Origin: Chiloscyllium plagiosum
Lineage: Eukaryota
Direction: 5' to 3'
NCBI RefSeq assembly: GCF_004010195.1
Contig: NC_057718.1
Location: 51,479,941-51,543,940 of the forward strand
DNA length: 64,000 nt
The position numbers and the translations under genes are program-made. Positions within the stretch are counted from its first letter, which is position 1, and each line of letters begins with the position of its first letter. The notes under the pieces were generated by a model. That model did not search any database, was not told the origin of the DNA, and saw only the letters and a program-made list of their open reading frames with translations. Below, one piece after another: positions 2,312 to 52,846 of the stretch.

Positions 2312-2400
2312 CTGAAAATGTGTTGCTGGAAAAGCGCAGCAGGTCAGGCTGCATCCAAGGAGCTGGAGAATCGACGTTTCGGGCATGAGCCCTTCTTCAG
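2312..2400 (-). mobile_element. Solo PLE terminal repeat with an intact minimal HHR core
   Basis: Minus strand reads CCTGAAGAAGGGCTCATGCCCGAAACGTCGATTCTCC; TSD gtaaagttaatg (2300-2311) / gtaaagtcaatg (2401-2412). Confidence 0.8.
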
Positions 2401-2574
2401 GTAAAGTCAATGTCAAATTATCTGAAATAATAAGATCCAAGAGCACATTTCAAATGCTATAGAGATTATCTAAGTTGATGGTAGTGATCTTCAACTTCTC
2501 CAACAATTCCCTTTCGAAAAATCAGGGAAGAAACTGAGCTAACTCATTAACCTAACACTAAAGCCTTACAATAA

Positions 2575-2662
2575 AAGTAAAATACTGCAGATTTGAGAGA
2601 CCTGAAATAAAAGCTGACAGTGCTTGAGAAACTCAGCAGGTTTGGATAGGAAAACAGAGGTC
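2575..2662 (-). mobile_element. Decayed PLE 3' terminus
   Basis: aaatactgcagat...ctgaaataaaa...gagaaactcagcaggt resembles the reverse complement of 21660-21745. Confidence 0.5.
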
Positions 2663-3298
2663 ATACTACATTCAAGTTTAATGTGTTTCATTCAAGATTG
2701 CCAGACAGAAGTAACTAGATGAAACTGTTGGCTTCACAGTGATCTCATGTTTCCTATGCTGCAAAGTTCTATTGACTGTGATTCCATTCCTTAGATTCCA
2801 AAACGTTTGTGAGATAATGGAAGGAAATGCAAAGCAGTCTTAATGCCATCATTCTGCACCAATCCACTGTACCATCAGCATTTTGTGGCAACATGACAAA
2901 CCAGAGTGTGACTATTGCGCAATCGCAAAAGGCGTACTGCCAGTGTCTATTTGGTATTGTTACTGTTGGGGAAAAAAATGTTTCCTTACATTTGTTGGTT
3001 TCCAGTCTGAAGGAACCTATCTTCCAGAATCCAATGACTTTTGGAAAATTAACAAGAATGTATCTTGTATCTCATTAGCTACAACTTCTAACACACTAGG
3101 ATGAAGATCATTAAGGCCCAGAAACTTAACAACACACAGCTGCATCAGTTTTCTGAGTACTGCTTCTGTAGTGGTGAAGATGTTCAACTAGTTCCTGTCT
3201 TCCTTCAACCTCCTGATTTACAGACATTATTAAGTTGCTTTTTTGTGTCCTCAATATTGAAGAGGAAGCAAAGTATTTATCCGTTGCATCTGCCATTT

Positions 3299-6103
3299 AG
3301 AGTCAGAGAGATGTACAGCATGGAAACAGACTCTTTGGTCCAACTTGTCCATGCCGAACAGATATCCCAACCCAATCTAATCCCACCTGCCAGCACCTGT
3401 CCCATATTCCTTCAAACCCTTCCAATTCATATACTCATCCAGATGCCTTTTAGATGTTGCAATTGTATTAGCCTCCACCACATCCTCTGGCAGCTCATTC
3501 CATACACGTACCACCCTCTGCCTGAAAATGTAGCCCCTTAGGTGGCACAATGGTTAGCACTGCTGCCTCACAGCGCCAGAGACCCGGGTTCAATTCCCAA
3601 CTCAGGCGACTGACTGCGTGGAGTTTGCACATTCTTCCCATGTCTGCGTGGGTTTCCCCCAGGTGCTCCGGTTTCCTCCCACAGTCCAAAGATGTGCAGG
3701 TCAGGTGAATTGGCCATGCTAAATTGCCCGTAGTGTTAGGTAAAAGGGGTAAATGTCGGGGAATGGGTGGGTTATGCTTCGGCGGGTCGGTGTGGACTTG
3801 TTGGGCCGAAGGGCCTGTTTCCACACTGTAAGTAATCTAATTTAATCTATATCTTTCCCCTCTCAACCTAAATTTATGCTCTCTAGTTCTGGATTCCCAC
3901 ACCCCAGGGAAAAGACTTTGTCTATTTATCCTATCCATGACCGTCATAATTTTGTAAACCTCTAGAAGGTCACCCCTCACCTTCTGACGCTTCAGGGAAA
4001 ATAGCTCTTGCCTATTCAATTTCTCCCGATAGCTCAAATCCTCCAACCCTGGCAACATCCTTGTAAATCTTTTCTGAACCCTTTCAAGTTTCACAACATC
4101 ATTCCAATAGGAAGGAGACCAGAATTGCACACAATATTCCAACAATGGCCTAACCAATGTCCTGTACAGCCACAACATGACCTCCCAATGCCTCTACTCA
4201 ATACTCTGACCAATAAAGGAAAGCTTACCAAATGCCTTCTCCATTATCCTATCTACATGTAACTGTACTTTCAAGGAGCTATGAACCTTCACTCCAAGTT
4301 CTCTTTGTTCAACAATACTCCCAAGGACCTTACTATAAATGTATAAGTGCTGCTAAGATTTGCTTTCCCAAAATGCAACATCTCACATTTATCTAAATTA
4401 ACCTCCATCTGCCACTTTTCAGCCCATTGCCCATCTGATCAGATCCTGTTGTAATCTGAGGTAACCTTCTTTGCTGTCCACTACACCTCCAATTTTGGTG
4501 TCATCTGCAAACTTACTAACTATACCTCCTATGTTCACATCCAAATCATTTAAATAAATGATGAAAAGTAGTGGACCCAGCACCGATCCTTATGGCACTC
4601 CACTGTTTACAGGCCTCTAGTCTGAAAAACAACCATCACCACCCCTTGTGTTCTACCTTTGAGCCAGTTCTGTATCCAAACGGCTAGTTCTCCCTGTATT
4701 CCATGAGATCTAACCTTGCTAACCAGTCTCCCATGGGGAACCTTATCGAACACCTTACTGGATCCATATAGATCACATCTACTGTTCTGCCCTCATCAAT
4801 CTTCTTTGTTACTTCTTCAAAAAACTCAACCAAGTTTGTGAGACATGATTTTCCACGCACAAAGCCATGTTGACTATCCCTAATCAGTCCTTGCCTTTCC
4901 AAATACATGTACATCCTGTCCCTCAGGATTCCCTCCAATAACTTGCCCACCACTGACATCAGGTTGATAGTTTCCTGGCTTGTCCTTACCACCTTTCTTA
5001 AACAGTAACACAACGTTAGCCAACCTCCAGTCTTCCGGCACCTCATTTGTGACTATCGATGATACAAATATCTCAGTAATCACTTCCTTAGCTTCCCACA
5101 GAGTTCAAGGGTACACCTGATCAGGTTGTGGGGATTTATCCACTTATATGCATTTCAAGACATTCAGCACTTCCTCCTCTGTAATATGGACATTTTTCAA
5201 GAAGTCACTATCTATTTCCCTAAATTTTATGTCTTCCATGTCCTTTTCCACCGTAAATACTGATGCAAAATACTTGTTTAGTATCTCCCCCATCTCTTGT
5301 GGCTCCAAACAAAGGCCGTCTTGCTGATCTTTGAAGGGTCCTATTCTCTCCCTCGTTACCCTTTCGTTCTTTATGTATTTGTAAAAACCCTTTAGATTCT
5401 CCTTAACTCTATTTGCCAAAGTTATCTTATGTCCCCTTTCTGCCCTCCTGCTTTCTCTCTTAAATATACTCCTACTGCCTTTGTACTCTTCTAGGGATTC
5501 ACTCGATCTATCCTGTCTACACCTGACATATGCTTCCTTTTTTTTGTTAACCAAAACCTCAATTTCTTTAGTCATTCAGCATTCCCTGTACCTACCAATC
5601 TTTCCTTTCACCCTAACAGGAATATACTTTCTCTGGACATTCGTTATCTCATTTCTGAAGGATTCCCATTTTCCAGCCGTCCCTTTACCTGTGAACATCT
5701 GCATCCAATCAGCTTTTGAAAGTTCTTGCCTAATACCGTCAAAATTGGCCTTTCTCCAATTTAGAACTTCACATTTAGATCTGGTCTGTCCTTTTCCATC
5801 ACTATTTAAAACTAATAAAATTATGGTCACTGGCCCCAAAGTGCTCCCTCACCTCAGTCACCTGACCTGCCTTATTTCCCAAGAGTAGATCATGTTTTGC
5901 ACCTTTTCTAGTTGGTCCATCCACACAGTGATTCAGAAAATTTTCTTGTACATACTTAACAAATTCCTCTCCATCTAAACCCTTAACACTATGGCAGTTC
6001 CAGTCTATGTTTGGAGAATTAAAATCCCCTACCATAGCCACCCTATTATTCTATCAGATAACAGATCTCCATACAAATTTGTTTCTCAATTTCCCTCTGA
6101 CCA
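3299..6103 (-). mobile_element. 5'-truncated CR1 (HER1-like) LINE, ORF2 (APE endonuclease-RT) pseudogene
   Basis: ORF fragments MVGDFNSPNIDW, VPEDWRLANV, SQHGFVRGKSCLTNL, YRTLVRPLLEYCVQFWSP, LERVQKRFTRMLPG; many frameshifts; TSD gccattt 3292-3298/6104-6110. Confidence 0.92.
3541..3848 (+). mobile_element. HE1 SINE (tRNA-derived V-SINE) nested in the CR1
   Basis: A/B-box head (tggttagcac...gggttcaattcc), V-domain gtgtctgcgtgggtttcc, CR1-like tail gaagggcctgtttccacactgta, (taatc)n end. Confidence 0.92.
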
Positions 6104-7174: not shown

Positions 7175-7489
7175 TATCTTGAAAGCATTCTATAATTCAC
7201 CCATTATATTGCCATCGCTTTAATACAAGCACTCAATGTTTCTTCTTGGATAGGATCCCCTTGAATCATGGACAGTCTTATTGACTGTCATAGCCTTGAT
7301 TTCATGTTCCTCGTTCATTCCAGAAATTGTGTACCCTCCAATTCTCTTGACTGTGCCCACTATTTAGATTTCATGGTGCCTTTAAAATTATACTTTAGCA
7401 TATCTTAAAGCAAGAGCTTTGTTCCATGCACAGTGTTTGTGGGCTGCTTTGTGGCTGCACATCTGCATAGTTTAGACACACATAAATAC

Positions 7490-7706
7490 CAGGAGAAGGT
7501 GAGGACTGCAGATGCTGGAGATCAGAGCCGAGAGTGTGGTGCTGGAAAAGCGCAGCAGGTCAGGCAGCATCTGAGAAACAGGTGAGGAATCGGCTAATCC
7601 AAGAATCAACCCATTCCTGATGAAGGGCTTCTGCCTGAAACTTCGATTCACCTGTTCCTCAGATGCTACATGACCTGCTGTGCTTTTCCAGCACCACACT
7701 CTCGAG
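7490..7706. mobile_element. Fold-back PLE-terminus mini-element with HHR motif
   Basis: Inverted arms with the tail on the left; + strand CTGATGA(7617-7623)AGGGCTTCTGCCTGAAACTTC; TSD acataaatac 7480-7489/7707-7716. Confidence 0.8.
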
Positions 7707-9149
7707 ACATAAATACGACACTCCTTTAGCCCAACAGAACTTATGCTCCCAATGTGTAGCTGTAACAACAGAAACTCTGTACCATCAATTAATCTTATAA
7801 CGTTCCTTCACAATATTTCCCCCTTACTAAGACTATTGAATGAATAAGACTAATATCTGAATTTCCATTATGCAGTCTTCGCAGGTGAAGCTCTTTTTCA
7901 TTACTTCAAGTCTGCAAAAATACCTTGATGGTCAACAAGAGGCACAGGCTGCTATTAACATGGGAGCAGCAAAACGACTAAAAAGCCTCTCTACTTCTGT
8001 TTCAGAGCGATGGTTCAGACAATGATTACTTTGTAATTACACCAGCTGTTTAGATTTTCTCAAAACAAATCTCATAATCTATCCTATTATTAGGCACAAG
8101 ATTTAATCACAGACATATATATCTTTATAAATATACATATATTTGGTTGACCATGCAAAGAAATCAATAGGTTGGTCTCGGGACTTCATCCATCTAAAGC
8201 CTGAATCAATGGTGCACTGTCATCATGGTAATGTGTCTGGACAGGCTTCTAACAACACTTCTTAACAGCAGAACTGGTTACACACCACATATTGCCACTT
8301 CAGACTTGCAGGGCAACTGGAGTGTCAGCTCTGATGCTCTCTTGTTTAATGTTGCAAAATTAAGTTTCAGTGAAAAATCTCAATCCTGTTTAAATGGCAA
8401 ACAAGGGAATATGTCTGACTTCCAGTCATTCAAAAATCATTAAACTTCCTAGAATTCATGCTGAATTTTAATTATTCCCTGTTTTCTTTCAGTGATGACT
8501 ACACAATGTTTTACAGCCTTACATGGATAATGAGACCATAATCTGGAGTTACATAGATTTACAACTGAGCTTTGCAACCCACAAGTTTGTATTATAATGA
8601 AGGATGCACATTTGAAAAATCATAACTTGTCTTTCTCTTTGTGGATGTTGACTGATATATTCGATACTTCTATTTCTCTGCTTTCAATTCAGATTACCAT
8701 TCTTTTGTCTGTCTTTGATATTTTTCACTGCATCCCTGTCTGTTTTCTCAATGCTTTGTTCTATTTTAACCAGTAGCACTTTCCATGGAGGACTCTTCTA
8801 TTCAAAGTTCCCATAACAGAGAAGTTAGAAATCAGTGTTGATGAATAACAATTATTGTTAAATTGCTATTCTTTATATAAAAATAAGTTTGTTAGTGCAG
8901 AAGTATTTTGAGACATGCAATGTAAGCAGACCAAAGCTATAAGAAATAAACACTTAGTCTGCTTTAAGGAAGCAGTCATACATAGAATGTACAGTGTGTT
9001 TTTTGTCTGCTACAACAGGAAAGCTTAACAAAACTTTGATAGAAAGTCAAGCTCCATAGTTACAATAGTTCTGTATCATTCAATTCACGGACATCAGCTA
9101 GAATAGCAACAACTTGCTTTTAACATAATAACCATTTTACAGCCTCTGT

Positions 9150-13310: not shown

Positions 13311-14520
13311 AAGACTGTTCTAGTTAGACCAAAATGGTCTTTATCCTCATCCATGTCAGACTACTTTGGGCTTGAAGCAACCTATTCAAAGCATTTGGTT
13401 GGGTGTAATTTTAAGCTAACTTAATGGTTGGAAAGTCATACAAATGTTCTTGCAAAGAATGACAGAGGCCCATTTCACCCATTTCTTGTGAAATATGGGT
13501 GTTGGTTTCTGCTTGGACAGGTTTTATTAGTTGGATTATTCATCATGTACTCTCTGCCAAGTGGGCTATTAAATTGCCTAGTGCTCCTAATTTTCAGTTG
13601 TCTAAGATAGGCAGATATTTCAATCGTAGACAAATGTAAGATGGCTTCTGAGCATTAAATACCACATGGTTTGAATGAATGTTTTCTCTTATTATTCATT
13701 GTAATTGCATGTTGGAAACATAAATTGTCCAGCTCCTGATATTCTTGACAGTCAACCACATTTTGAATAGACCAAGAGCCCAGGAACTTCTTGAGCTGTG
13801 TCTTTAAAAGAATATCTCATTGCAGATTACACCTACCTTGGGCATGCAACAACCTGTAGTCGCATTGAAATCCAATTTATATCTGGGAATAGAGTTGCTA
13901 TTAAGAGGTGCTGCACAACCATATGAATGTGCAATTTTAGCCTGTGTGATGACAATTTCAATTTTATGCAAAACATCTTTATTGACTGGCAATTAATATG
14001 CTTCAATAATAAGCATTAGTGTGAGTTGAACCATTTCACTACTATAAATTGAGTGTTGATGGCAGGTGTTGTGCATCAAAATAGTTTGGCTTCATAAGCT
14101 TTGACTCATACAAGATATAATTTCATATGCCTCATGCTGTGACACTACAGGTTACTTCCGACAAATATCCTGCCTATGTAATAATAATACTCTTAAACTG
14201 CTTTTTATCATTTACACGTTAACAGTATTTATATCCTTGTTTTTTTTTGCACTTAACTGCTTGACACAATCATGGTTAATCATTATAATGTGATGTCAGT
14301 ACTTAAAGTAGGCATTTAGAAAATTTGTGAATTATTGCTGTATTTATTGGGGTTTCATATTGATCAAAATGATCAGCAATGTGTCTTTTGTTTCTAAGGT
14401 TTTTAATGTGAGAGCTTCTGTTTGGTAATTATGATCAAGAAATCATTTAAAGTTTGGGAGAAGATTTGTAGCTCGGGTGCTCGTTGTTGTGGTTCTGTTC
14501 GCGAGCTGGGAATTTGTGTT

Positions 14521-14560
14521 GCAGACGTTTCGTCCCCTGTCTAGGTGACATCCTCAGTGC
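14521..14560 (-). ncRNA. Minimal type I hammerhead ribozyme motif
   Basis: GCA-CTGAGGA-TGTC ACCTAGACAGGG GAC-GAAAC-GTC-TGC on the minus strand. Confidence 0.75.
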
Positions 14561-15879
14561 TTGGAAGCCTCCTGTGAAGTGCTTCTGTGATCTTTCCTCC
14601 AGCAATTATAGTGCTTTGTCTCTGCCGCTTCCGGTTGTCAGTTCCAGTTGTCCGCTGCAGTGGCCGGTATATTGGGTCCAGGTCGATGTGCTTATTGATT
14701 GAATCTGTGGATGAGTGCCATGCCTCTAGGAATTCCCTGGCTGTTCTCTGTTTGGCTTGTCCTATAATAGTAGTGTTGTCCCAGTCAAACTCATGTTGCT
14801 TGTCATCTGAGTGTGTGGCTACTAAGGATAGCTTGTCATGTCGTTTCGTGGCTAGTTGGTGTTCATGGATGCGGATCGTTAGCTGTCTTCCTGTTTGTCC
14901 TATGTAGTGTTCTGTGCAGTCCTTGCATGGGATTTTGTACACTATATTGGTTTTGCTCATGCTGGGTATCGGGTCCTTCATCCTGGTGAGTTGTTGTCTG
15001 AGAGTGGCTGTTGGTTTGTGTGCTGTTATGAGTCCTAGTGGTTGCAGTAGTCAGTTCAGAAATGTTTTTGATGTATGGTAGTGTGGCTAGTCCTTTGAGT
15101 TGTGGCATGTCCTCATTCTGTTGTCTTTCCCTTCGGTATTTGTTGATGAAATTCCGGGGGTATCTGTTTTTGGTGAATACATTATATAGGTGTTCTTCTT
15201 CCTCTTTTTACAGTTCTGGTGTACTGCAGTGTGTTGTGGCCCTTTTGAACAGTGTCTTGATGCAACTTCTTTTGTGTGTGTTGGGGTGGTTGCTTTCGTA
15301 GTTTAGGACTTGGTCTGTGTGTGTGGCTTTCCTGTATACCTTTGTGGTGAATTCTTCATTCGGTGTTCTCTGTACCATCACGTCAAGGAATGGGAGTTGG
15401 TTGTCCTTTTCTTCCTCTCTAGTGAATCGGATTCCTGTGAGTGTGGCGTTGATGATCCAGTGTGTGTTCTCTATTTCTGTGTTTTTAATGATTACAAAGG
15501 TATCATCTACATATCTGACCCAGAATTTGAGTTGAATTTGCAGTAAGACTTTTTGTTCTAACCTTTGCATTACCGCTTCTGCTATGAGTCCAGAGATGGG
15601 TGAGCCCATGGGTGTGCCGTTGATTTGTTCATATATTTGGTTGTTGAATGTGAAGTGTGTTGTGAGGCACAGGTCCAATAGTTTGAGTATGCAGTCTTTG
15701 CTAATAGGTTCCACGTCTTGTTGTCTGTTCTGTATGTCCAGCAGGTTGGCTATTGTTTCTCTGGCTAGGGTTTTGTCGATAGAGGTGAACAGTGCCATTA
15801 CATCGAATGAGACCATAGTTTCTTCCTTGTCTATATGTATATTTCTGATGATGTCCAAGAATTCCTGTGTTGACTGCAC
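14541..15879 (-). pseudogene. PLE reverse transcriptase-GIY-YIG endonuclease, 5'-truncated and frameshifted
   Basis: VSFDVMALFT, GTPMGSPIS, WVRYVDDTF, LPFLDV, then ATLPYI, then IVYKIPCKDCTEHYIGQTGRQLTIRIHEH, split over three ORFs. Confidence 0.9.
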
Positions 15880-16232
15880 AAAACACTACATAGGACAAAC
15901 AGGAAGACAGCTAACAATCCACATCCATGAACACCAACTAGCCATGAAACGACATGACCAGCTGTCCTTAGTAGCCACACACGCAGATGACAAGCAACAT
16001 GAGTTCGACTGGGACAACACTACTATTATAGGACAAGCCAAACAGAGAACAGCCAGGGAATTCCTAGAGGCATGGCACTCATCCACAGATTCAATCAATG
16101 AGCACATTGACCTGGAGCCAATATACCGGCCACTGCAGCGGACAGCTGGAACTGACAACCGGGAGCGGCAGATACAAATCATTATAAATGTCAGAGGAAA
16201 GATCACAGAAGCGCTTCACAGGAGGCTCTCAA

Positions 16233-16272
16233 GCACTGAGGATGTCACCTAGACAGGGGACGAAACGTCTGC
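16233..16272 (+). ncRNA. Minimal type I hammerhead ribozyme motif
   Basis: CTGAGGA 16236-16242, GAAAC 16262-16266, GTC 16267-16269; stem I GCA/TGC; palindromic ACGT stem III. Confidence 0.75.
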
Positions 16273-18899
16273 AACACAAATTCCCAGTTCGGCGAACAGA
16301 ACCACAACAAGAAATCATTTACTCCAGTCAACCCATTACATACCATGCAAGATCAGGAGAATGTATAATAAAATTTCATTTATTTATGATTGAAGGCCTA
16401 GTATAGTTTGCAATTGAATGTTTTAAGAACTTGCACATGTTACGCAATGGAACGACGTCTGATAGACAATGACTGTGCCATGTGCACTATATTCACATGA
16501 TTTTAGCATAAACGGGATATCATACAAATCAAAACTAACTCATTAAGTTGGAATAAGTACCTTTCTAAATGGTTATGATGTTTTATAGTTCTTTACATGC
16601 ATCAGAAACTCATTACAATTGCTGATAAGTTTACAGTTTTCGTACAATGATGCTTCTTTTTGAATAGAACGGCATTATACGACATAAAGCTGCTAAAAAT
16701 CTATGCTCAATCTGGTGATACAAATGCAAAGTTCTCACTCGGAACAGCTGTTCCTTTTTAATATTTAGTGAGATTTTGAATGACTCAATACTAAACTGTT
16801 TTGCTGGAATACATTCTTTTTTTAAATTAGTTTGTGCTCTTCAAGATGAACAATGTTGAGCCACCAAACTGAACTTATTGTCACTTTTGGATGTTTCAAT
16901 GCAAGTTTAATACTCCAAAATGCGAGATTGCATGCATTGATATGGAGAATTTTTTCAAACATTCTTTCATCCCAATTTCAGAACACTCCCCAGAAATGTG
17001 AAAATCTTCACTCCTCACTTCAGCAGGCTTTGTGTGTTCAAATGATTGAACTAATTGATTGGCAGTTTTGCATTTTGGGGATACACTCACTGGAAATTAG
17101 AATGAAAAAATCCATTTTCATGTCACTGAGGTCAATCACAGTCACCTGATATAGAAACCATCAATCCATCTATACAAGCCAGATCTAGATTTAGAGTTAA
17201 AAGGGGGGTATGCCCGCTTACAATTTCCCATTTTGTATGTAATAAATAACTTAAGGTAAATCTTTACCTTACATTGTAAAAAATGATATTTTAAACAGAA
17301 GGTTGAAATAATGATCGAGCAGTTACAATAATTTATTGTATTGCAATTGAGATTATAGTTGATTGTGCATGCTAATCTGATGTAACAAAAGTTTTGTAAG
17401 CAATTGCTTCAATAAAGGATTCCTCCCAAAACATGAAACCCTTTTCCTAAGTCTTTAGCAGTTTCTGATGTCACAGTGATGGCAGCAGTAAGTATTGTCC
17501 TAGCATAGTTGGCTCTGGGCAATTCATTCACAGCAAGGATGGGAAAGCCCAGCAACTGTGCAAAAGAAAAGGGATTTTCAGAAACATGTGACGCTCCAGA
17601 CTGGCACAAGTAGACCTGAGGTGTTAACTCAGATGTAGTAATGAGGTGATAAATCTTAACTTTCATATTTTTAGCCAGCTATTTACTGAACGCTACAGAA
17701 TATGTCTTTAAGGAAATTATTCCAATATTTGAGTGGGCTATGGGTTAAACTGTCTTTATAGCTGAATAGTTAACATATTTTCAGCATGTGTCCTGTAGTG
17801 ATGCTCCAGACTTTATACCTAGTGCTGATTTGTCTTCAAATTTTGTGTTGGGAATAACATAAACAATATCAGCTCTCACCATTATTAGGGAGTAAAATTA
17901 AACAGCACATTCCAACATCTGCTCATGTACACTCAAAAGTGGAAATTAGGACATTAAAATTGAACTGCCCCTCAACAGGTTTTGCAATAACAGTTCTTCA
18001 AGAAGAGCCTTGACAAATGAAAATTGTAAGGTTGCATTTATTAGCATGCAGGCATCCACTAAACATGTCAGTAAATGCTAGGAATTGTTCTTTCAAGTTA
18101 AAATAGAATTTTAATCAAGCAAGAAGTTTCAATTGTTACCAAACACCCTCTCTGGCACCGAAAATGCATCTTTACAAACAAACTTGCAAACTGTAACTTT
18201 CTACCATAAGTTATTTTGTTTTCTTTCATCCCTTTTAATGTTAATTCAATTTTGGTATTTTTCTTTCTATAACGTTTTTCACTCTTTCTCTTAATCCCAT
18301 CTTTCTTTCTTTCTCTGTACCACACTTCTGTTACATTGTTTATTTTGAATTAAATATCCTGTCTTACATCTCTTCATTCAGGCATTATCTGCCTCAGTAT
18401 GAATCTTTCAGCCTGATTGACTGAAGAGACATGCTGCTGCTGTTGCTATTTACAGAGGTCTCAGATTCCCTGTGGTAAAAACAGCATTTGTTAGATTCCC
18501 GAAGTTGAATTGTTGCTGCTTTCAACCCACAAACAAGCAGTTTGTGAGTAACTGTAAACATAATCTTTGGGGAATGTGTTATGTTTGCTGTTGACCACAA
18601 AATCTGAATTAATATGCAAACTCGTGTTAGACTTCAAATAACTGGGCTAAAACCCTTTACCATGAGTTAACTATTTTCTGGACAAATAAAATCATTTCAT
18701 TTTTAAAAATACACCAAAAATATTTGAAATGTCTGAATTATTCTTTCTTAATAGTCAGCAATATTTTTGTACAGCTATTTTATGTTTATCCATTACAATG
18801 ATTTTCAGGTTTTTAATTTTTTTCAATTGACAAAGCTTCATGACTGAAAATTTAATTATATTCACATTTCAAAATAACAATTCTATTTGAATTTGCTCA

Positions 18900-34900: not shown

Positions 34901-35918
34901 TAATGTTCTATACACATTTTGGCTCACCCTTTTCCTAAACAATGTCCAATCCTTCTCTACATGTAATGCCTGTCTTTGCTGATGTTGGTTGGCTAGGAGC
35001 CAAGGATTCCAGATGCTGAGTTAGAGGATGTGGGGTGGAGAAATGTAGCATGCACAGTACTGGATGGGTGCGCTGAGCTGTATTGCTGCGATAATGAGGC
35101 TTCGACAAACCAACAGACTTACTTTGAGCTGCATTCTCCAGCAGACTTCACAACTGTAAAGCTCTCAGTAAATCTGTCTAAAAATCAAGTTAAAAAGAGG
35201 GCAACAGCTAAAGCCTGACCGGAAATGTTCATCGCATCCAGTGTCGTGGGAAATGGTACAGCAATCTCAGCACGGCATGACCAGCAATCAGAATTTTAAA
35301 CTTCCTACATGTGTATCATTATGTGCATGTCAGAGGCTTCCAGAGGGTGTGGAAGTGCAACAGTAATTTAAATTTGTCATTCTCTGCTACCAATATTGAA
35401 AGATTCAGGCCATTGTTTTGCTGTGAGTATTTATTTTAGTTTGTTCATTATTCAGTAAGGCTGCTTGCATTCCAAAGATGCATTGACTAATTTTAGCTTT
35501 ATTCTCTAACCATCTGAAACTTTTCTATCATTTACATTGGGTTTGGGGAGATTGCATCTAGACACCGTGGTGTCCCCACAATTGACACCCCCTCTTTGTT
35601 TCTCCCCATTTGCAGTCCTATTAATGTCCCTTTCTGAGGGCAAAATATGAATGAGGGAAGTAGATAGTCTTTTAGCAGGAGACCAGGAATGCTAATAGTT
35701 TATCAAGCTAGGAAACCTCTACCTGCACCATCCATTGCCATAAGGGCACAGTTTCTGTCACTGGCTGCTTAGAGAAGTGTTTTGTCCCATTTTCTCTCTC
35801 ACATTGAGACTCTCAATTCCTCCGTGCTGAAAGATCTTCTCTTCACCTTCCAGTTTCTAGAACCTGTACTTTGTTCTTAATGGGGCTCCAGGAGACGATC
35901 ACTTAAGTTTTTTCACAG

Positions 35919-36140
35919 CTGAAAATGTGTTGCTGGAAAAGTGCAGCAGGTCAGGCAGCATCCAGGGAACAGGAGAATCGACGTTTCGGGCATAAGCCCT
36001 TCTTCAGTCATTCCTGAAGAAGGGCTTATGCCCGAAACGTCGATTCTCCTGTTCCCTGGATGCCGCCTGACCTGCTGCGCTTTTCCAGCAACACATTTTC
36101 AGCTCTGATCTCCAGCATCTGCAGACCTCACTTTCTCCTC
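35919..36140. mobile_element. Near-perfect fold-back HHR mini-element
   Basis: 91 bp arms (35917-36007/36014-36104, 2 mismatches), 6 nt loop, tail 36105-36140; TSD taagttttttcacag 35904-35918/36141-36155. Confidence 0.9.
36010..36045 (+). ncRNA. Minimal hammerhead ribozyme motif (mirror copy on minus strand ~35976-36009)
   Basis: CTGAAGA 36014-36020, stem II GGGC-TTAT-GCCC, GAAAC 36034-36038, GTC 36039-36041; stem I is weak. Confidence 0.7.
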
Positions 36141-40914: not shown

Positions 40915-41865
40915 GCTTTGCAGCCTGAGCCAGAGATATTGGCCAGGGAACAGGGTGGTGTGTTGAAGTGACAGGAAACTGGAAGCTCAGAGATGTCAAT
41001 TTGTTTCAAATTTTGACTTGTTCTCACCTTCAGCTGACCCATCTAACTCCTCCCTTCCCTTCCTCAACATCTTTGTTTCCAGGGACACCCTGGTCCACTC
41101 CTCCTTCACTCCCAGCTGCCCACCACAGCCCATGGCACCTTGCTCTGCAACTACAGAAGGTGTAATATCTACCCATTTACTCCCTTCCTCCCCAGTATCC
41201 AAGACCCAAACATACCTTCCACGAGAAGTAGCACTTTACCTGTACTTCACTCAGTCTAGTCTACAGTATACACAGCTACTATCTCCTCTACATGGGGGAA
41301 ACAAAGCCAAAAAGAACCCTGAGCTTCCAGTTGTCTGCCACTTCAGCACACCACCCTGTTCCCTGGCCAACGTTTCTGACTCAGGCTTGCTACAGTACCC
41401 CAGCGAAACTCAGCGCAAGCTGGAAGAACAACACCTCATTTTCCTCTTAGGAACTCAACTGTACTCAGTATTGACTTTAACAATTTTAGGGCTTAGGACT
41501 CTCCCAAGTCCTTACCCTAACGCCCACACACCCAGCCTTGTTATCACATACTCAACTATTACACATAACCCATTGTTAGCCATTAAGAGTCCCCTTTAAT
41601 AGCTGTTCACTCTCCTGGGCTGACCATTATCCATCCCTTTGTCTGTCTAACTGCTCTTCTCTCTCTTTGGGCTCTATCTCCACCAAATATTTACTCCTTA
41701 CCCCCTTCACCCTCACAGTCTATCTTCTGCTTAGAAAAACAACTTTTTCCTAGCTACCATCAGTTCTGAAGAAGGGTCACTGGACCCAAAACATTAATTC
41801 TGATTTATCTCCACAGGTGTTGCCAGATCTGCCTAGCCTTTCCTGCAGTTTGGTGTTTCTGTTTC
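40915..41865 (+). mobile_element. PLE fragment (RT end, GIY-YIG, 3' UTR, HHR) with a 5' inverted segment
   Basis: LPFLNI; PELPVVCHF; QRKLEEQHLIF; HHR-like agtt-CTGAAGA-GGGTC/GACCC-AAAAC-ATT at 41761-41800; ~40920-40990 inverted versus ~41318-41392. Confidence 0.8.
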
Positions 41866-41874
41866 AATATATTG

Positions 41875-44004: not shown

Positions 44005-45121
44005 CTTCAGAAAGTTCCTGACCAATAGACTGCCATCAGTGAAGATAGACAACTGCACAGCCTTCACAATAACCCACAACACTGGAGCCCCCGAAGGATA
44101 CATTCTCAGCCCTCCACTGTACTCCCTGTATATCCGCAAACGTGTCGCCAAATTCCAAATAAGCACCATCTAAATGTTTGCTGACAACACCACCGTGGTA
44201 GGAAGAATATCAATCAACAATGAGTCAGAATACAGAAAGGAGATAGAGGGTTTGGTGTCATGGTGCAATGATAACAACCTCTCTCTCAATGCTGGCAAAA
44301 CAAAAGAATTGATCACTGGCTTCAGAAAGCAAGGAGGAGAACTTGCCCCCATCTACATCAACAGAACGGAGGTTGAGAGCATTCAGAGTGTCAAGTTGCT
44401 TGGAGTGACGATAACTGTTAACCTGTCCTGAACTTCCCATGTGAATGTAACAGTCAAGAAGGCATAACAATGCCTCTTCTTTCTCAGGCAGCTTTGGAAA
44501 TTCAGATTGTCCATAAGGATCCACATTAACTTCTACAGATGCACCATAGAAAGCATACAATCCATATACATAACAGCCAGGTACAGTAACTGCACAGGAT
44601 CGTAAGAAACTACAGAAGATTGTGTGCATAGCCCACACCATCACAGAAGCTAATCTTCCATCCATGGAGACAGAAAGGACTGCAGATGCTGGAAGCCAAA
44701 GCCAATAGATGTGGAGCTGGACAAGCACAGCAGGTCAGACAGTGTCAGAGGAGCAGGAAAATCAATGTTTCGGGCAAGGACCATGGACTCCATGTATACT
44801 TTTCACTGCTGCAGAAAGGCTGCCAACATCATTAAAGACCCCTGCCACCCTGGTAATACAACCTCTTCCATCAGGCAGAAGATACAGAAGCTTAAACACA
44901 TACACCAACAGGTTCAAGAACAGCTTCTTCCTTGCCATTATTAGACTAATGCATGGACATTCTAACTTCAAATGATATTGATCTAGTTAATGTTGATCTT
45001 GCTTTGCACACATCCTGTGCAGTGTAACATGTATGCCTCACTCTAAGCACCCTATGATCTGTATGCCAAACAAAGCTTTTCACTGTAAGTAGGTACATTT
45101 GACTACAATAAATCAAATCAA
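44005..45121 (+). mobile_element. Rex1/Babar-type LINE 3' portion
   Basis: GAPEGYILSPPLYS, FADNTTVVGRI, LNAGKTKELI, TNRFKNSFF; tail gcttttcactgta...caataaatcaaatcaa. Confidence 0.88.
44669..44780 (-). mobile_element. Short PLE 3' terminus inserted in the Rex1 element
   Basis: aggactgcagatgctgga...gcacagcaggtcag...gagcaggaaaatcaatgtttcgggc; TSD ccatgga 44662-44668/44781-44787. Confidence 0.75.
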
Positions 45122-45350: not shown

Positions 45351-45499
45351 CACTGACAAAAATTGGCAAAAAGTGATCAAGGAACTTCGGAAAATCAATC
45401 CTTATGAAAGCTAACACCGTAGAGCACAAAGTCCTGGAATGAGCCTAGAAGCAATCCTTCGAGGCAGAGAACTACCAACTGAGCCACACAGACTTGAAG

Positions 45500-45722
45500 T
45501 CAAGATTAGAGTGGTACTGGAAAAGCACAGAAGGTCAGGCAGCATCTGAGGAGCAGGAAAATCGACGTTTTGGGCAGGAGACCCTCATTAGGAATTCCTG
45601 ATGAAGGGCTCCTGGCCGAAACGTCGATTTTCCTGCTCCTCGGATGCTGCCTGACCTGCTGTGTTTTTCCAGCACCACTCTAATCTTGACTCTAATCTCC
45701 AGCATCTGCAGTCCTCACTTTC
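45500..45722. mobile_element. Fold-back HHR mini-element (zero-loop palindrome)
   Basis: Arms ~45498-45594/45595-45691 centred on ggaa|ttcc; + strand HHR CTGATGA 45598-45604, GAAAC-GTC 45618-45625; TSD gccac(a/t)cagacttgaag 45483-45499/45723-45739. Confidence 0.88.
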
Positions 45723-45736
45723 GCCACTCAGACTTG

Positions 45737-45838
45737 AAGCCTACTTACCACTCCCAGTGATCTCCTATCTAAGTCCAAGCCAGCTTAGCTCTGTTTAGAT
45801 CAGACAAAGTCAGGTTACAAACTGGTATGGCTATAGAC
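45737..45838 (-). pseudogene. Degenerate 5S rRNA-derived sequence (probable SINE head)
   Basis: Minus strand gtctatagccatacca...gtctgatct...gctaagc...acttagataggagatcactggga...gtaggctt aligns by eye with vertebrate 5S. Confidence 0.75.
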
Positions 45839-47200: not shown

Positions 47201-47518
47201 TCCTTGGGGAGATCAGGTGACCTTTGTGCAGGTAAGATGCCTTCTGAGATTGCCAAAAATAGCCATAAATAAGCATTGAAAGTGTATAAACTCATATTGT
47301 AACTATCAAAAGTGCAAAATGAACTGTCAAGATGGGCTGTCAGAAACAACTATCAAATGTGTCAAGATGTGCTGTCAAGAGAAATTGTCAAGGGATTTAA
47401 AACTCCTGCTCTTTAAGTCTTTGAAAACACAGGTCTGCTAAACTAAAATGCCTACTGTTTCCCTCTGTTGACCTTGGCTACCACTACTAGACTAGTTTCA
47501 TAACTATTCATTACCATG

Positions 47519-47733
47519 ATTTGGAGATGCCGGTGTTGGACTGGGGTGTACAAAGTTAAAAATCACACAACACCAGGTTATAGTCCAACAGGTTGAATTG
47601 GAAGCACACTAGCTTTCGGAGCGATGCTCCTTCATCAGGTGATTGTCAACTGATGAAGAAGAGGCACTCCGAAAGCTAGTGTGCTTCCAATTAAACCTGT
47701 TGGACAATAACCTGGTGTTGTGTGATTTTTAAC
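47519..47733. mobile_element. Fold-back HHR mini-element of a second PLE family
   Basis: Arms aagttaaaaatcacac...; minus strand CAC-CTGATGA-AGGAGC ATC GCTCC-GAAAG-CTA-GTG; TSD ttcat(t/a)accatg 47507-47518/47734-47745. Confidence 0.88.
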
Positions 47734-49021
47734 TTCATAACCATGGTTTGGTGCCTGCCTTTTCACAGCTTGATTGACAATACCAGGTGGTCCTACCTTT
47801 AAAATTCCCACACTTTCAATTATAAGGGATTATCCAATTGCTTAAAATGTTCATTGTTATAAAAATTTATGAAGATGAAAAAAATCAAGTATGCTATTAT
47901 AAATGTGAGTTTTTTTAAAAAAAGTCTTCAATGTACACTTTGACCTTTACATTGCTTCACTTTAGAATGGTTCCTGTGATCTGTCTACGGTTCCTTCCAG
48001 GTGAGTTGGCCTAGTAGTTGTAAGAGCAAAGCGTGGTGGATGGGGAGCATTGGGTCAGCATAACTGGGCACTAAGTTGGCATTGAGGACCATAGAGGTGG
48101 GTGGTTGGTGGTTGACATGCCCAACTACAAGGAGGGGAAGAGAGGTTATGGCGGTATGGAGAATTTGCGGTGGCACATATGAGGCATGGGGATCATGCAG
48201 GAGGGGATCATGTAGGAGGGATTTTTATGTTCTATTCTTTCTTTTTAAAGTTGAGATACAGTTCTAGAGCCACAAGGCAAGGTGCCATCTCCATTATTGC
48301 CTCCTCACCTCTGCACTTTAATTTACAGGAATGGCGAACTTTCTCCCACGTCACGGTTGTGAAACTGGGAATTGTCTAGATGCTATACCCAGAAGAGAAA
48401 ATGCAACCTGAGTTAGAAATTATTGAAATGATTTGAAGAAGCAGGAATAAATTTATCTCAAAAAAGGAAATTCAAGTTTATAAAAACACTACTCTTTTGG
48501 ATGAATAAATCACCTTAACATTTATTTTTAAATATGTTAGAGAGATTTTGACTTCACTGCTGGGATGATCACCCTACCATTTTAGAATCCATCTAATTTT
48601 CTTTTCCTGAAACACGAACTGAAAATCAAATAGTTTCTACAAAAGCGAGACAACCAGTTTTATCAAATTACTGCCTCGGTAGTGGAGATGAAAAGTTACT
48701 CAGAAAAGTTGTTTTCTGCCAAGGAATGAATAGTTTATTCACAAACTGAAAGTATCATGATGGATCTCACACTAGATTTGCGAAATAGAATGAATGGTCT
48801 CTGCCAATTAAATTTCCCAATGTTTTTGAGAATTCTAGTTACAGTTTCAAGGAGATATTTTACATTCACACAGAAACATCTTTAGATCAATGTCTCCCTT
48901 GTGCAAATATATGTGTTTCATGAAAGCAATTGCTTCTTTTGAAAATTGATAAATCAAGCAAATGTTCAATTATACAACATAATAATTTACACAGTTCAAA
49001 AACAAAGACCCTGAAATTATA

Positions 49022-49205
49022 GCTGAAAATGTGTTGCTGGAAAAGCGCAGCAGGTCAGGCAGCATCCAAGGAGCAGGAGAATCGATGTTTCAGGCATGAG
49101 CCCTTCTTCAGGAAGGGCTCATTCCTTGGATGCTGCCTGACCTGCCGCACTTTTCCAGCAATACATTTTCATCTCTGATCTTCAGCATCTGCAGTCCTCA
49201 CTTTC
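49022..49205. mobile_element. Fold-back HHR mini-element with a deletion near the hairpin tip
   Basis: Same family as 35919-36140; TSD accctgaaattata 49008-49021/49206-49219. Confidence 0.88.
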
Positions 49206-49504
49206 ACCCTGAAATTATATCACGGTATATCATCTTTTGATTTCTATACATTAGTCTGAAAAGCCATTGACCATTGTGGTAGAAAGTGTTACAAAATATT
49301 CAAAGTCTTTTATAGTTTTGTTCATCCTATAACCTTTTAAGGATTCTGCTCCCCCATGTTTTTCATTTTTGCATTCTTCTGACTTTCATCCCACTGGTAG
49401 TGATTATGCTTTCAATCATCTCTACCCTGTGGCCTCTAATTTGTTTATCTAAAACTCTCAGGCTTGATTTTAGTCACCCATTTCAGTCTTTTTCCCTGCG
49501 TCAG

Positions 49505-50330: not shown

Positions 50331-50334
50331 TTCT

Positions 50335-50800
50335 TTGGCCCAACATCAAGTCCAATAATTTTAGAGGCTAATTCCATCCTTCCATGTTTTTACCCATCTC
50401 ACACGCAGTCCTGTTATGACATGTGTTGCTTTTACACAGTCACCCATTCTCACATAGTCCTGGGCTTATTAACAGAATAGGGTGTTACTTTCAGTACAGG
50501 TCACACATTTTCTCCTACTCTTATAATCACTTATTCAGTTTTTCTTTGGTCCTTTCCTGCAATCCCTAATCCCCTTGTTGACCTCCCCCTTTTCATATCT
50601 CTCTCACTCTGGGCTCCATCTCCATCTATATGCTCACTTCTTCCTCATCCCCTACCCCACTGGCAGCTTTGCACAAATGCCACCTTTTCCTAGCTGTTAT
50701 CAGTTCTGATGAGGAGTCACTGTACTCGAAACATTAACTCTGCATTCTTCTCACAAAACCTGCCGCACCTTCTGAGTTCCTCCAGCAATGTCTGTTTTTA
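50335..50800 (+). mobile_element. PLE 3' UTR with HHR motif
   Basis: AGTT-CTGATGA-G-GAGT CACTGT ACTC-GAAAC-ATT-AACT at ~50702-50740. Confidence 0.7.
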
Positions 50801-52619
50801 TTTGTGACTAACATGTATGGGTTGAATGAACCCTTTAACTGTGCTGCAGCTAGTTTCCTTCTAAGTGTTCATGGTTTGATTGGTTAAGTAAGTCCATCAA
50901 ATAGCAAGTCATTGTGCTGAGGCAAACTGATCCCCCAAATAGGTCTTATTATAATCGCTGGGCTCTTAGCTTACTGTAAAAGGGTTTTTAATGCATTCCA
51001 TGTTTGTTCTGGATGCTTATGGAATAACCCAATTATCTTATATTGCAAACATTTGGAGCACGAGTTCAGCACAAACAAATTTCCAGGTCATTGTCCTTTT
51101 ACCTGTTTATGTGTGTACAACTGAGAAATGACTTTGATTTGTTTACATTGATAGTAACTCAAATTTCCAACTGCTTGCATATTCTTTTCCCCTAAATGAT
51201 GGAATTCTATCAAGGAAAACAGCATGCATTAGCTCTTCAATCTTGAAAGGTCGGGTACACTCTCTTGTCTAGGGAATGGTACTCATTGGAAGGAACATGA
51301 AACAGCAAGTGAATCAAAACACTTTAAAAATAAACTTCCACAAAAGACAAAGAATCTTGCTTCCATAATTATGGAATTTCCAGATTTGATCTTACGTAAA
51401 CTTCACAGTTTGGATACTAATACTACTGACCTATATATCTCACCTCTGAAGTCTCCTTCGGTGTGGGCAAAAAGCCAGAAGAGATCTGTAACATCACTAT
51501 AAAAATAAATCACTAGAACTGATCTGGTGCCAAGATGTAAATACTGTTATGCAAATTGGTCTATAAGGGTTTTATTATAATAACAGATTATAGGCTTTAA
51601 CTGTGAAAATGTATTGCAATTGTAAAACTGTTGTGACTTATAAATAATGTATAGCTGGTAATTTATTACAAAATTATGTAATATTACAATATTAAAGGAG
51701 ATTTTCTTTTCTTCTTGAAGCTGATGATGAACCCACTCTTGTTAAACCTGAGGACGGCACCACTATTGATGCCAGACTTCAGTTAATCAGATATAGCTCA
51801 TGAGATCTCAAGAAACAACTGAGTGTATTGGATATAGCAAAGTCTGTGGCTTGAATGTTTGCTCACAGGTTGGAAGAAATGAGTCAGGGTCTTGCCTTGC
51901 TCTGCAAACATCACCAGGGAAGAAAAAGAAACACCCTGGAAATTGGATTTTCATTCCAGGGAGAGAGGTTGATAGAGGTTGAGATTTATGGCAGTCATGA
52001 CAGGTAAATCTGGAAAGAGCATGGAGGCTGCTGAGTGTGGAGGCTGGTGGGTGGAAGGCCTGCCTCAGTCTACCAACACTTGGTCAAAGATATGAAGGAA
52101 AGATCATAAAACCAAAAAGGAGCCCACTCTCATCCTGCACATACTCCTCATACCCCAATCTATGCCAATTCATACTTGCTACTCGCCCAACATATACTTT
52201 GTGGTAACCTATTCTCTTCATCTACACTCTTTGAATGTTTTAGTCCCTCTGCCAACCTTATGCCAATACATGCAAATCCACACCCCACCCATCTTCCTTC
52301 GCCTGATATGCCAATTCATCCAATATCACTCCAAGCAGGTCTGAGGACCTATGCTGAGATGAGACAAAATAGAGTTCTGGATTGTCTATTGGAGAATTCA
52401 TGACTTTTTTTTTCAAATACCCTATCATTGACTCAAAAAGCCTCATTAATTACATTTATCCTCCTTATTTAAAAAAAATAATCCAGATTCAGAGAGTTTA
52501 CCAGTTTTTCCAGCTGTCAATCAAATTGTGAAATGACAGGCACCAAACCTGTACTGTTGATAGGATCTGAAGTCAGACACGCATTGCTAGTCCAGTAATG
52601 ATGGCCCTCAGGTTTATGT

Positions 52620-52846
52620 GAGGACTGCAGATGCTAGAGATCAAAGCTGAAAAATGTGTTGCTGGAAAAGTGCAGCAAATCAGGCAGCATCCAAGGAGCA
52701 GGAGAATCAACGTTTCGGGCATAAGCCCTTCTTTTTAAGAGATGACCTGGGGGGTGCAGTGAGAGAGGGACTCACTGAAAATGTCGATTCTCCTGCTCCT
52801 TGGATGCTGCCTGACCTGCTGTGCTTTTCCAGCAACACATTTTTCA
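52620..52846. mobile_element. Fold-back HHR-family mini-element with a foreign central filler
   Basis: Same family as 35919-36140; filler ~52734-52777; TSD gccctcaggtttatgt 52604-52619/52847-52862. Confidence 0.85.

What the first reader, a model, noticed from the sequence alone, without database searches (positions are those of the whole stretch)
2312..52846. Family of TSD-flanked, coding-free fold-back mini-elements built around hammerhead ribozymes
Seen in sequence: five ~180-230 bp fold-back insertions of one terminus type (7490, 35919, 45500, 49022, 52620), one of an unrelated type (47519), and two single-arm copies (2312, 44669). Each has its own 7-17 bp TSD and most turn at or next to the HHR core. 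Established: PLEs carry minimal HHRs in their pseudo-LTRs and often have inverted termini. Inference: these are either a SINE/retrozyme-like non-autonomous class mobilised by PLE RT/GIY-YIG, or a stereotyped product of very early 5' truncation plus a second strand jump. About one copy per 8 kb implies a very large genomic family.
Basis: partly seen in the sequence, partly recalled or inferred. Interest (0 to 1): 0.78.

Follow-up and report, generated by a model that had tools for sequence, protein, structure and literature searches.

The report
Stub insertions of Penelope-like retroelements
These short hairpin-shaped inserts in a shark-type genome are real, but they are stubs left when Penelope-like jumping genes copy only their ribozyme-bearing end into both DNA strands, a known kind of insertion whose stopping point may mark where the element's RNA begins.

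Summary
All eight inserts are real, with 7-17 bp target-site duplications (TSDs). The arms are the 3' end (pseudo-LTR plus ~35-nt tail) of Penelope-like elements (PLEs). The same end sits on a long copy with an endonuclease remnant (1662-2192). The layout, 3' ends outward with the tail on one arm only, is the published PLE insertion pattern shrunk to its minimum.

A self-propagating fold-back family is not supported. The five family-A centres all differ, arms pair up by locus in 4 of 5 copies, and the hairpin buries the hammerhead (43-50 kcal/mol).

Not simple random truncation either: 12 of 13 family-A arms stop within -6..+27 of the hammerhead core whether or not they carry the tail, and only 1 starts at the cleavage site. 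Copy 52620 is not coding-free: its 45-nt centre matches codons 17-28 of a shark PLE ORF. This suggests the template was the pLTR-ORF junction of an autonomous transcript, with run-off near its 5' end (inferred).

No genome was held, so the genome-wide junction census was not possible. The scan reported this population repeatedly on other windows of the same genome.

The parts
1561..2192 (+). Long family-A PLE insertion: inverted internal piece 1561-1662 (-), then GIY-YIG C-terminal remnant (~1662-1878), pyrimidine-rich 3' UTR, decayed hammerhead (core C at 2068), pLTR end (~2157) and tail (2156-2192). TSD AACAGTTT 1553-1560 / 2197-2204
   Evidence: (tblastn P0003 303-348 at 1659-1796, 85% identity, E 1e-17)
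2312..2400 (-). Single family-A arm, no tail, 5' end at -1 of the hammerhead core; TSD 2300-2311 / 2401-2412 (1 mismatch)
7490..7704 (.). Family-A fold-back (second sub-type). Left arm (-) 7490-7592 has the tail and begins at the scissile position (+27). 19 nt of unknown origin at 7593-7611. Right arm (+) 7612-7704 has no tail and begins at -5. TSD 7478-7489 / 7705-7716 (1 mismatch)
35919..36140 (.). Family-A fold-back. Left arm (-) 35919-36007, no tail, begins at 0. Right arm (+) 36008-36140, tail, begins at -6, intact minimal hammerhead (core C at 36014, predicted cut after 36041). TSD 35904-35918 / 36141-36155
44669..44780 (-). Single family-A-related arm (divergent sub-type) with tail, begins inside helix II (about +10), no CUGA core; TSD 44662-44668 / 44781-44787
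45500..45722 (.). Family-A fold-back (third sub-type). Arms overlap by 2 nt at 45594-45595, both begin near -4. Right arm has the tail and an intact minimal hammerhead (core C at 45598). TSD 45483-45499 / 45723-45739 (1 mismatch)
47519..47733 (.). Family-B fold-back. Left arm (-) has a 34-nt tail (47519-47552) and an intact minimal hammerhead (core C at 47638). Right arm (+) has no tail and a broken helix II (core C at 47650). 11 nt lie between the two cores. TSD 47507-47518 / 47734-47745 (1 mismatch). No parent ORF in the window
49022..49205 (.). Family-A fold-back. Left arm (-) to 49114, no tail, begins at -3. Right arm (+) has the tail and begins at +5 through a 3-nt overlap, with a ~23-nt internal deletion removing the GAAA/GUC half of the hammerhead. 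TSD 49008-49021 / 49206-49219
52620..52846 (.). Family-A fold-back. Left arm (-) 52620-52733 with a shortened tail, begins at +3. Right arm (+) 52779-52846, no tail, begins at +21. TSD 52604-52619 / 52847-52862
52734..52778 (-). 45-nt centre of copy 52620. 52773-52738 translates to a 12-residue match (10 identical) to residues 17-28 of a shark PLE ORF (P0230), in the same orientation as the tailed arm
14450..16307 (.). RT and GIY-YIG remnant on (-) with a tailed end at 14450, plus a 439-bp inverted tail-less copy (15872-16310). TSD 14436-14449 / 16308-16321

Best explanation
Each mini-element is a dead-end insertion made afresh by an autonomous endonuclease-bearing PLE (family A: Neptune-type, inferred; family B: parent not seen). 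SHOWN: the arms are the PLE's 3' end; each insert has its own TSD and its own centre; there are two fixed outer ends (pLTR end at about +89 and tail end at about +124 from the hammerhead core C), used once each in every fold-back; inner ends pile up at the hammerhead's front edge regardless of arm length. ESTABLISHED for a related PLE in vitro (PMC11167929): the protein cuts and extends both target strands and starts reverse transcription inside the RNA at two sites that bracket the tail. INFERRED: a staggered cut yields the TSD. Each nicked strand primes a cDNA, one from each start site. Both cDNAs stop at the same template feature 90-130 nt upstream and are joined head to head with 0-3 nt of overlap or a short filler. 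A single priming event gives a solo arm. Most likely stop (about 45%): the RNA's own 5' end, the template being the pLTR-ORF junction at the front of the element's transcript. Second: stalling on the folded, uncleaved hammerhead (about 30%). Ribozyme cleavage does not set the ends.
For: Same end on a long copy with an endonuclease remnant 93% identical over 41 aa to a Chiloscyllium punctatum RT/GIY-YIG protein. One tailed plus one tail-less arm in 7 of 7 end-to-end inverted insertions (5 A, 1 B, 1 D), the published PLE pattern (PMC8557442; PMC3846280). Five different centres in 5 family-A fold-backs. Arms are each other's nearest neighbour in 4 of 5 (one of these a tie). Tailed arms (n=6, 97-130 nt) are all longer than tail-less arms (n=6, 68-94 nt; exact Mann-Whitney p=0.002), yet the mean 5' position differs by 4.5 nt, not 35 (p=0.52). 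Simulated exponential truncation put 12 of 13 ends in any 34-nt window in at most 8 of 10,000 runs for means of 30-1000 nt. The filler in 52620 is the best hit of P0230 residues 1-760 in the whole window (E 0.002), and 0 of 3000 random 45-mers scored as high. In contigs of three runs of three organisms the tail end is sharp at 2191-2193 with unrelated flanks (agreement 0.33-0.38). Summed depth there is 2-3x (X1) and about 5-9x (X12) higher downstream of the hammerhead than in the 3' UTR.
Against: n is small (13 family-A arms, one window), and 5' positions were read by hand. The element's transcription start is not known. In D. virilis Penelope the start lies 46 nt upstream of a 75-nt intron whose end abuts the hammerhead (PMC2377424; PMC4209133), not directly at it. 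The filler is one event, P0230 is a related sub-family (137 of 198 aligned residues identical to P0003), and the filler could be a repair-time capture. The depth step is confounded by sub-types sharing the pLTR, by duplicated pLTRs in long copies and by mismatches in my reference. In vitro the two start sites were used alike on both strands, so coupling is not shown. The long insertions at 1561 and 40922 have inverted pieces that start inside the element, which the two-start-site model does not predict.
Confidence: 0.75

Rival explanations
1. The templates are short, hammerhead-headed pLTR-only RNAs transcribed from solo or stub copies and mobilised in trans: a SINE-like single-arm class. The mirror arm is still added at insertion.
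For: 5' ends are position-specific. Depth is higher over the pLTR than upstream, most strongly (about 15x or more) in the run guessed to be RNA, X15. Non-autonomous PLE derivatives exist (PMC8557442 section 10), and pLTR sequence sufficed in trans in a rotifer (PMC3846280).
Against: The ORF-start filler in 52620 needs RNA or DNA that continues past the tail into the ORF. Short arms of the main sub-type are as close to the long copy as to each other (2-7 differences in 62 columns, leaving out 49022R with its deletion). In vitro the anole protein needed 172 nt of ORF, beyond both start sites, which a tail-ended stub lacks. X15 is another organism and not shown to be RNA.
Confidence: 0.15
2. The whole fold-back is a self-propagating non-autonomous element (SINE/retrozyme/MITE-like) whose hammerheads process its RNA.
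For: Narrow size range (184-227 bp), a TSD on every copy, and one stub per 8 kb. Retrozymes are PLE-derived (bioRxiv 10.64898/2026.07.22.740005).
Against: No shared centre in 5 of 5, and arms pair by locus. No tandem units in the window. The two hammerheads face opposite ways, so the dimer that minimal hammerheads need cannot form in cis. A hammerhead-compatible fold costs 43-50 kcal/mol in the whole element against 3-5 in one arm (3 of 3 tested, loose constraint). Only 3 of 14 arms keep a complete motif. The listed opposite-strand joints have depths of 22-43, a few loci each (weak test).
Confidence: 0.04
3. The mirror arm is made by self-priming: one nascent strand folds back at the hammerhead's short palindromes and copies itself, as proposed for rotifer PLEs. 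This concerns only how the inversion forms.
For: 2-3 nt overlaps at self-complementary spots in 45500 and 49022. PMC3846280 reads palindromic junctions as self-priming. It would also explain inverted pieces that end inside the element (1561, 40922).
Against: Tail-less arms end at the same fixed base (+89/+90) as the solo, TSD-flanked arm at 2312, so that end is a priming site in its own right. Solo arms stop at the same 5' place with no partner. The centres of 35919, 7490 and 52620 have no overlap or carry fillers.
Confidence: 0.2
4. [quoted passage not shown]
For: The left arm of 7490 begins at the scissile position (+27).
Against: Only 1 of 12 short family-A arms does so. The other 11 retain sequence 5' of the cut, and 7 of 12 keep at least part of the CUGA core. 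In the anole PLE, ribozyme mutants did not change the insertion product and no RNA-seq reads ended at the cut.
Confidence: 0.04

Closest known systems
Insertion units of endonuclease-positive Penelope-like elements: 5'-truncated copy, adjacent inverted copy, 30-40 bp tail on one end, TSD (PMC8557442; PMC3846280; passages read)
   Same: 3' ends outward, inverted truncated copy, tail on one end only, 7-17 bp TSD, hammerhead in the pLTR, GIY-YIG/RT parent.
   Different: Both copies are cut down to the pLTR alone, stop at one template position and are very abundant. The passages I read do not describe a position-specific stop.
Minimal hammerheads (min-HHR) of metazoan PLEs (PMC4209133; parts 1-2 of 4 read)
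   Same: CUGANGA core, one unpaired base before helix II, no helix III, palindromic ACGU/AGCU at the stem III site. That paper already notes dual min-HHRs 100-700 bp apart on opposite strands in Schistosoma and ascribes dispersed motifs to truncated PLEs.
   Different: Shark-type host, not covered in the parts read. Here the cores lie only 0-11 nt apart in four of the six fold-backs.
Anole Poseidon PAc, internal initiation at two sites (PMC11167929; parts 1-2 of 4 read)
   Same: Two fixed outer ends about 35 nt apart; both target strands extended; uncleaved RNA as template; pLTR-ORF junction as the working template.
   Different: In PAc the ORF starts inside the hammerhead. In family A no pLTR or tail frame matches the ORF start, so it lies further downstream. 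Pairing of the two sites in one insertion was not tested there.
Metazoan non-LTR retrozymes (PMC7229834, passages; bioRxiv 10.64898/2026.07.22.740005, parts 1-3 of 5)
   Same: Short, PLE-related, type-I hammerhead, no long ORF.
   Different: Retrozymes are head-to-tail tandem units with same-sense hammerheads that yield circular RNA. These are head-to-head pairs or solo arms with minimal, mostly broken motifs.
LINE-1 twin priming (recalled; only search listings seen)
   Same: Both target strands prime cDNA, giving an inverted 5' part and a microhomology joint.
   Different: In L1 the two parts copy different stretches of one RNA. Here they copy the same stretch from two fixed start sites.

Membership tests
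EN+ Penelope-like element insertion | Terminus belongs to an element with RT and C-terminal GIY-YIG | tested here: met
   Family A: endonuclease remnant in line with the same end at 1662-2192; relatives P0003/P0005/P0230 carry RT and GIY-YIG-like domains. The Pfam GIY-YIG and RVT_1 scores for P0003 and P0230 are below the curated cut-offs.
EN+ Penelope-like element insertion | Parent ORF for family B (47519) | tested here: inconclusive
   Only this copy is in the window. Assigned by anatomy (hammerhead, 34-nt tail on one arm, TSD) alone.
EN+ Penelope-like element insertion | Adjacent inverted 5'-truncated copy, 30-40 bp tail on one end | tested here: met
   7 of 7 end-to-end inverted insertions
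EN+ Penelope-like element insertion | Target-site duplication | tested here: met
   8 of 8 reader loci, 7-17 bp, with random-pair control
EN+ Penelope-like element insertion | Hammerhead motif in the pLTR | tested here: met
   8 pattern hits vs 0.017 in shuffles; 0 Rfam hits
Neptune clade | Zn-finger-like Cys motif in the RT-EN linker; clade placement by RT tree | tested here: inconclusive
   A Cys-x2-Cys is visible in the linker of P0003. The feature is shared with Nematis (PMC8557442). No tree with named references was built.
Non-LTR retrozyme | Head-to-tail tandem units, at least two with complete same-sense type-I hammerheads | tested here: not met
   No such tandem in the window; arms are head to head. 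Rare short head-to-tail joints of this family exist elsewhere (table 5).
Non-LTR retrozyme | Self-cleavage and circular RNA | not testable with these tools
   Needs bench work. The one raw-read RNA run laid gave 0 reads, which is no test.
Self-propagating non-autonomous element (SINE/MITE-like) | Shared internal structure inherited from a master copy | tested here: not met
   5 different centres in 5 copies; arms pair by locus in 4 of 5. Window only; the genome-wide test was weak.

The most novel reading that the evidence does not exclude
The front end of the PLE's own transcript works as a built-in stub factory. Because reverse transcription starts inside the RNA, at two sites only 90-130 nt from its 5' end, one protein complex primes both target strands, one site per strand, and runs off at the hammerhead's front edge. 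The stubs, plausibly 10^5-10^6 per genome, would then be a sequence record of the unseen steps of PLE transposition in vivo: coupled two-site priming, transcript start position and template jumps. The ORF-start filler in copy 52620 would be a direct trace of such a jump.
Probability: 0.35. Interest if true: 0.6.

Novelty: new member of a known kind. Interest (0 to 1): 0.33.

Why it matters
As a class of element this is ordinary: PLE end fragments in the published layout. Its value is as data. The steps of PLE integration after first-strand synthesis are still unvalidated (stated in PMC11167929). A shark-type genome with a very large number of minimal insertions allows cheap tests of whether the two start sites are coupled to the two target strands and what stops the enzyme at the hammerhead. 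It also warns annotators that such hairpins will look like MITEs or retrozymes. About one near-perfect 90-bp inverted repeat per 10 kb is a possible source of double-stranded RNA in host transcripts (not tested).

Tried and rejected
No whole genome was held, so no genome-wide BLAST was possible.

Pattern scans for more copies found 0 loci in metagenome contigs, viral contigs and prokaryote genomes.

Rfam gave 0 hits at gathering threshold. Isolated hammerhead arms did not fold better than shuffles in 7 of 7 cases (z from -1.04 to 0.01), which is uninformative for a helix-III-less motif.

Sequencing runs: no RNA holder listed. Raw-read RNA run X22 gave 0 reads laid from about 6 in 100 of the run, which is no test.

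The joint '2192 back to 2096' looks like a tandem restart at the cleavage site, but my reference has mismatches at 2092 and 2094 that would end alignments there, so I rejected it as evidence. The absence of a high-depth fold-back joint is weak: 104 joints were not shown, X1 was saturated, and contigs break at hairpins.

I first suspected that the 2312 arm was the far end of the long 1561-2192 element. Rejected: each has its own TSD.

The 19-nt filler of 7490 matched nothing in the window beyond 9 nt and gave only a 4-residue match to P0230, so it is left unexplained.

The 52620 filler found no match among the first 228 proteins held, nor in the one protein returned (P0229, which matches only the antisense pLTR frame). 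The match came from a cluster member, P0230.

A sequence look-up among earlier findings found nothing.
Full report
1. Observation. The inverted-repeat finder returns all six fold-backs with arms of 57-97 nt at 89-97% complementarity. TSDs of 7-17 bp flank 8 of 8. In a control with 1000 random boundary pairs, four TSD scores were never reached, three were reached once and the 7-bp one 19 times. Rfam has no hit. A pattern for minimal type-I hammerheads, written after I had seen the motifs, finds 8 sites against 0.017 on average in 60 shuffled windows. Eight stubs in 64 kb is one per 8 kb, as stated.

2. What the arms are. BLAST with one arm finds 13 family-A arms in the window, plus one weak hit to an older family at 21671. 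Permissive searches with the tail, the pLTR end and the hammerhead found no further arm beyond 11-nt chance hits. One of the 13 is long: 1662-2192 runs from a GIY-YIG C-terminal remnant through a pyrimidine-rich UTR into the same hammerhead, pLTR end and tail. The remnant is 93% identical over 41 residues to a Chiloscyllium punctatum protein, P0003, the only hit among 2 candidates. P0003 has RT-type motifs, a Cys linker and a weak GIY-YIG match. So the host is bamboo-shark-like and family A is the 3' end of an endonuclease-bearing PLE. 'Neptune-type' is my inference from the linker and from the report that vertebrate PLEs are Neptune or Poseidon; no tree was built. Family B (47519) has the same anatomy but no parent in the window.

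3. Anatomy. Counting from the C of the CUGA core, arms have one of two outer ends: about +89 (pLTR end) or about +124 (tail end). Every end-to-end inverted insertion uses one of each: 5 of family A, 1 of family B and the 1.86-kb family-D insertion at 14450-16307, which has RT and endonuclease remnants. That is 7 of 7. This is the published layout: an inverted 5'-truncated copy next to the main copy, with a 30-40 bp tail on one end (PMC8557442, passages; PMC3846280, passages). In the anole PLE the tail is the stretch between two internal start sites of reverse transcription, and the protein cuts and extends both target strands (PMC11167929, parts 1-2 of 4). Laying contigs of three runs on 1670-2250 shows that the tail end is sharp at 2191-2193 in all three organisms, with unrelated flanks.

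4. Is the fold-back a unit that spreads? The evidence in the window says no. The five family-A centres are: +27 / 19-nt filler / -5 (7490); 0 / -6 blunt (35919); -4 / -4 with a 2-nt overlap (45500); -3 / +5 with a 3-nt overlap (49022); +3 / 45-nt filler / +21 (52620). These were read by hand. The two arms of a copy are each other's nearest neighbour in 4 of 5 (one a tie; the exception, 49022, has a deletion in the compared stretch), and they share sub-type bases, so at least three sub-types each made the same shape. Gene conversion between arms could add to this likeness. There are no tandem units. Only 3 of 14 short arms keep a complete motif. The two motifs face opposite ways, and in the whole element a hammerhead-compatible fold costs 43-50 kcal/mol against 3-5 for a single arm (loose constraints, 3 elements). 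Retrozymes are defined by tandem same-sense units (PMC7229834, passages; bioRxiv 10.64898/2026.07.22.740005, parts 1-3 of 5; its supplements were not seen and may list shark families). Membership fails on that feature.

5. Is it just random truncation? Also no. Twelve of 13 family-A arms end between -6 and +27, ten of them between -6 and +10. Tailed arms (97-130 nt, n=6) are all longer than tail-less arms (68-94 nt, n=6; p=0.002), yet their mean 5' positions are +5.8 and +1.3 (p=0.52). A processivity limit would put them 35 nt apart. Exponential truncation with means of 30-1000 nt reproduced such clustering in at most 8 of 10,000 runs. Solo arms stop at the same place, so the stop does not depend on a partner arm. 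Only one arm begins at the predicted cut, so the copied RNA was mostly uncleaved, as found in vitro for the anole element. Genome-scale contig depth fits a step at the hammerhead on top of a slower decay: X1 has 7.3-8.8 million downstream, 2.8-3.7 million in the UTR and 9-15 in the unique flank; X12 has 6.4-8.2 against 0.9-1.3 million. The tool warns that this is no copy number, and shared pLTRs and reference mismatches confound the step. Taken crudely it suggests several hundred thousand arms and a large population of longer copies. Older family-C copies in the window are mostly longer (section 8), so the pile-up is shown for families A and B only.

6. A trace of the template. The 45 nt at the centre of copy 52620 are not random. 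On the minus strand, in the same sense as the tailed arm, they translate to ESLSHCTPQVIS, against ESLSHCNSQVIS at residues 17-28 of P0230, a C. punctatum PLE ORF. This is the best hit of P0230 residues 1-760 in the whole window (E 0.002), and none of 3000 random 45-mers scored as high (best 42 against 50). P0230's N-terminus aligns with that of other full-length relatives, and no frame of the pLTR or tail matches it, so the ORF start lies downstream of the tail. The enzyme that made the left arm therefore copied from the tail to +3 and then jumped to ORF-start sequence. That sequence exists next to a pLTR only at the front of an autonomous or tandem transcript. The lead came from recall and was then tested. 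It is one event, and P0230 is a related sub-family (137 of 198 residues identical to P0003), so it shows availability of such a template, not its general use.

7. Mechanism and verdict. Most likely, the PLE protein binds the pLTR-ORF junction of its RNA, makes a staggered cut, primes one cDNA on each strand from the two start sites, stops at the hammerhead's front edge, and the two cDNAs are joined head to head. TSDs, fixed outer ends, unique centres and the position-specific stop are shown. Two-strand priming and two start sites are established in vitro for a relative. Coupling of the sites and the nature of the stop (RNA 5' end, about 45%; folded hammerhead, about 30%) are inferred. PLE transcripts do start within the pLTR (PMC2377424, passages; PMC8557442 section 10), but in D. 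virilis well upstream of the motif. Self-priming remains a rival for the inversion, and a short SINE-like single-arm RNA remains a rival for the template. Dual minimal hammerheads on opposite strands were already noted and ascribed to truncated PLEs (PMC4209133, parts 1-2 of 4). Nine completed searches on PLE structure, hammerheads and sharks and one on solo pLTRs and transcription starts listed no paper whose title or abstract start concerns shark PLE stubs or a stop at the hammerhead. The library lacks most subscription papers, and Repbase and Dfam were not available. The scan's own notes report this population many times in the same genome (102 notes fit the look-up; 10 were shown across), with the same verdict and, in two, the same RNA-start idea. 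These are unchecked AI notes and not independent support. Verdict: real, new member of a known kind, interest 0.33. The additions here are the length-versus-position test and the ORF-start filler.

8. Other PLE remnants in the window. Family C (older) has endonuclease-like remnants at 32587-32922 (-), 41098-41455 and 61904-62572, with hammerhead-like ends near 41766, 50706 and 62824 and a short copy at about 21625-21740. Two long insertions (1561, 40922) carry inverted pieces that begin inside the coding region rather than at a pLTR end, which my model does not explain.

Noticed in passing
window 14450-16307: A 1.86-kb PLE insertion of a different type (RT Pfam E 5e-10, no Cys linker seen, Poseidon-like by inference) with a 439-bp inverted tail-less copy, a tailed main copy, a CUGAGGA hammerhead-like motif at the end of the ORF and a 14-bp TSD.
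   Followed up: partly
window 1561-1662 and 40922-40990: Inverted pieces at the 5' side of two long PLE insertions duplicate internal coding sequence (1778-1878; 41319-41387) instead of starting at a pLTR end. In the first, the inverted piece lacks the short deletion that the main copy has near 1783.
   Followed up: partly
window 7593-7611: 19-nt filler at the centre of copy 7490 with no source found in the window. It may be upstream sequence of that sub-type.
   Followed up: partly
window 21600-21740: Old family-C stub starting inside the hammerhead, with a 20-nt inverted piece in front (arms 21606-21625 / 21651-21670): possibly a decayed fold-back.
   Followed up: no
window 3538-3849, 19010-19325, 32096-32383, 53891-54198, 61052-61236: Five copies of a ~300-bp interspersed repeat with a tRNA-like head by eye (SINE-like; label recalled, not tested). 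The one at 3538 sits inside another repeat that has a copy at 29153-29840.
   Followed up: no
window 4684-5575 (-) and 44015-44958: Open frames that read like LINE RT/endonuclease remnants by eye. Pfam gave no hit for the three frames tested.
   Followed up: partly
window 2030-2045: A pyrimidine tract followed by TAG about 25 nt upstream of the family-A hammerhead core looks like a splice acceptor; D. virilis Penelope has an intron ending at its hammerhead.
   Followed up: no
lay on window 1670-2250: Rare joints show duplicated tails (2192 back to 2158), short head-to-tail repeats (2192 back to 2096 or 2104) and tail-to-tail pairs (2158/2190 on opposite strands) elsewhere in the genomes laid.
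   Followed up: no
P0229 (Chiloscyllium plagiosum predicted protein): A predicted host protein contains a stretch translated from the antisense strand of this pLTR, so such stubs end up in gene models.
   Followed up: no
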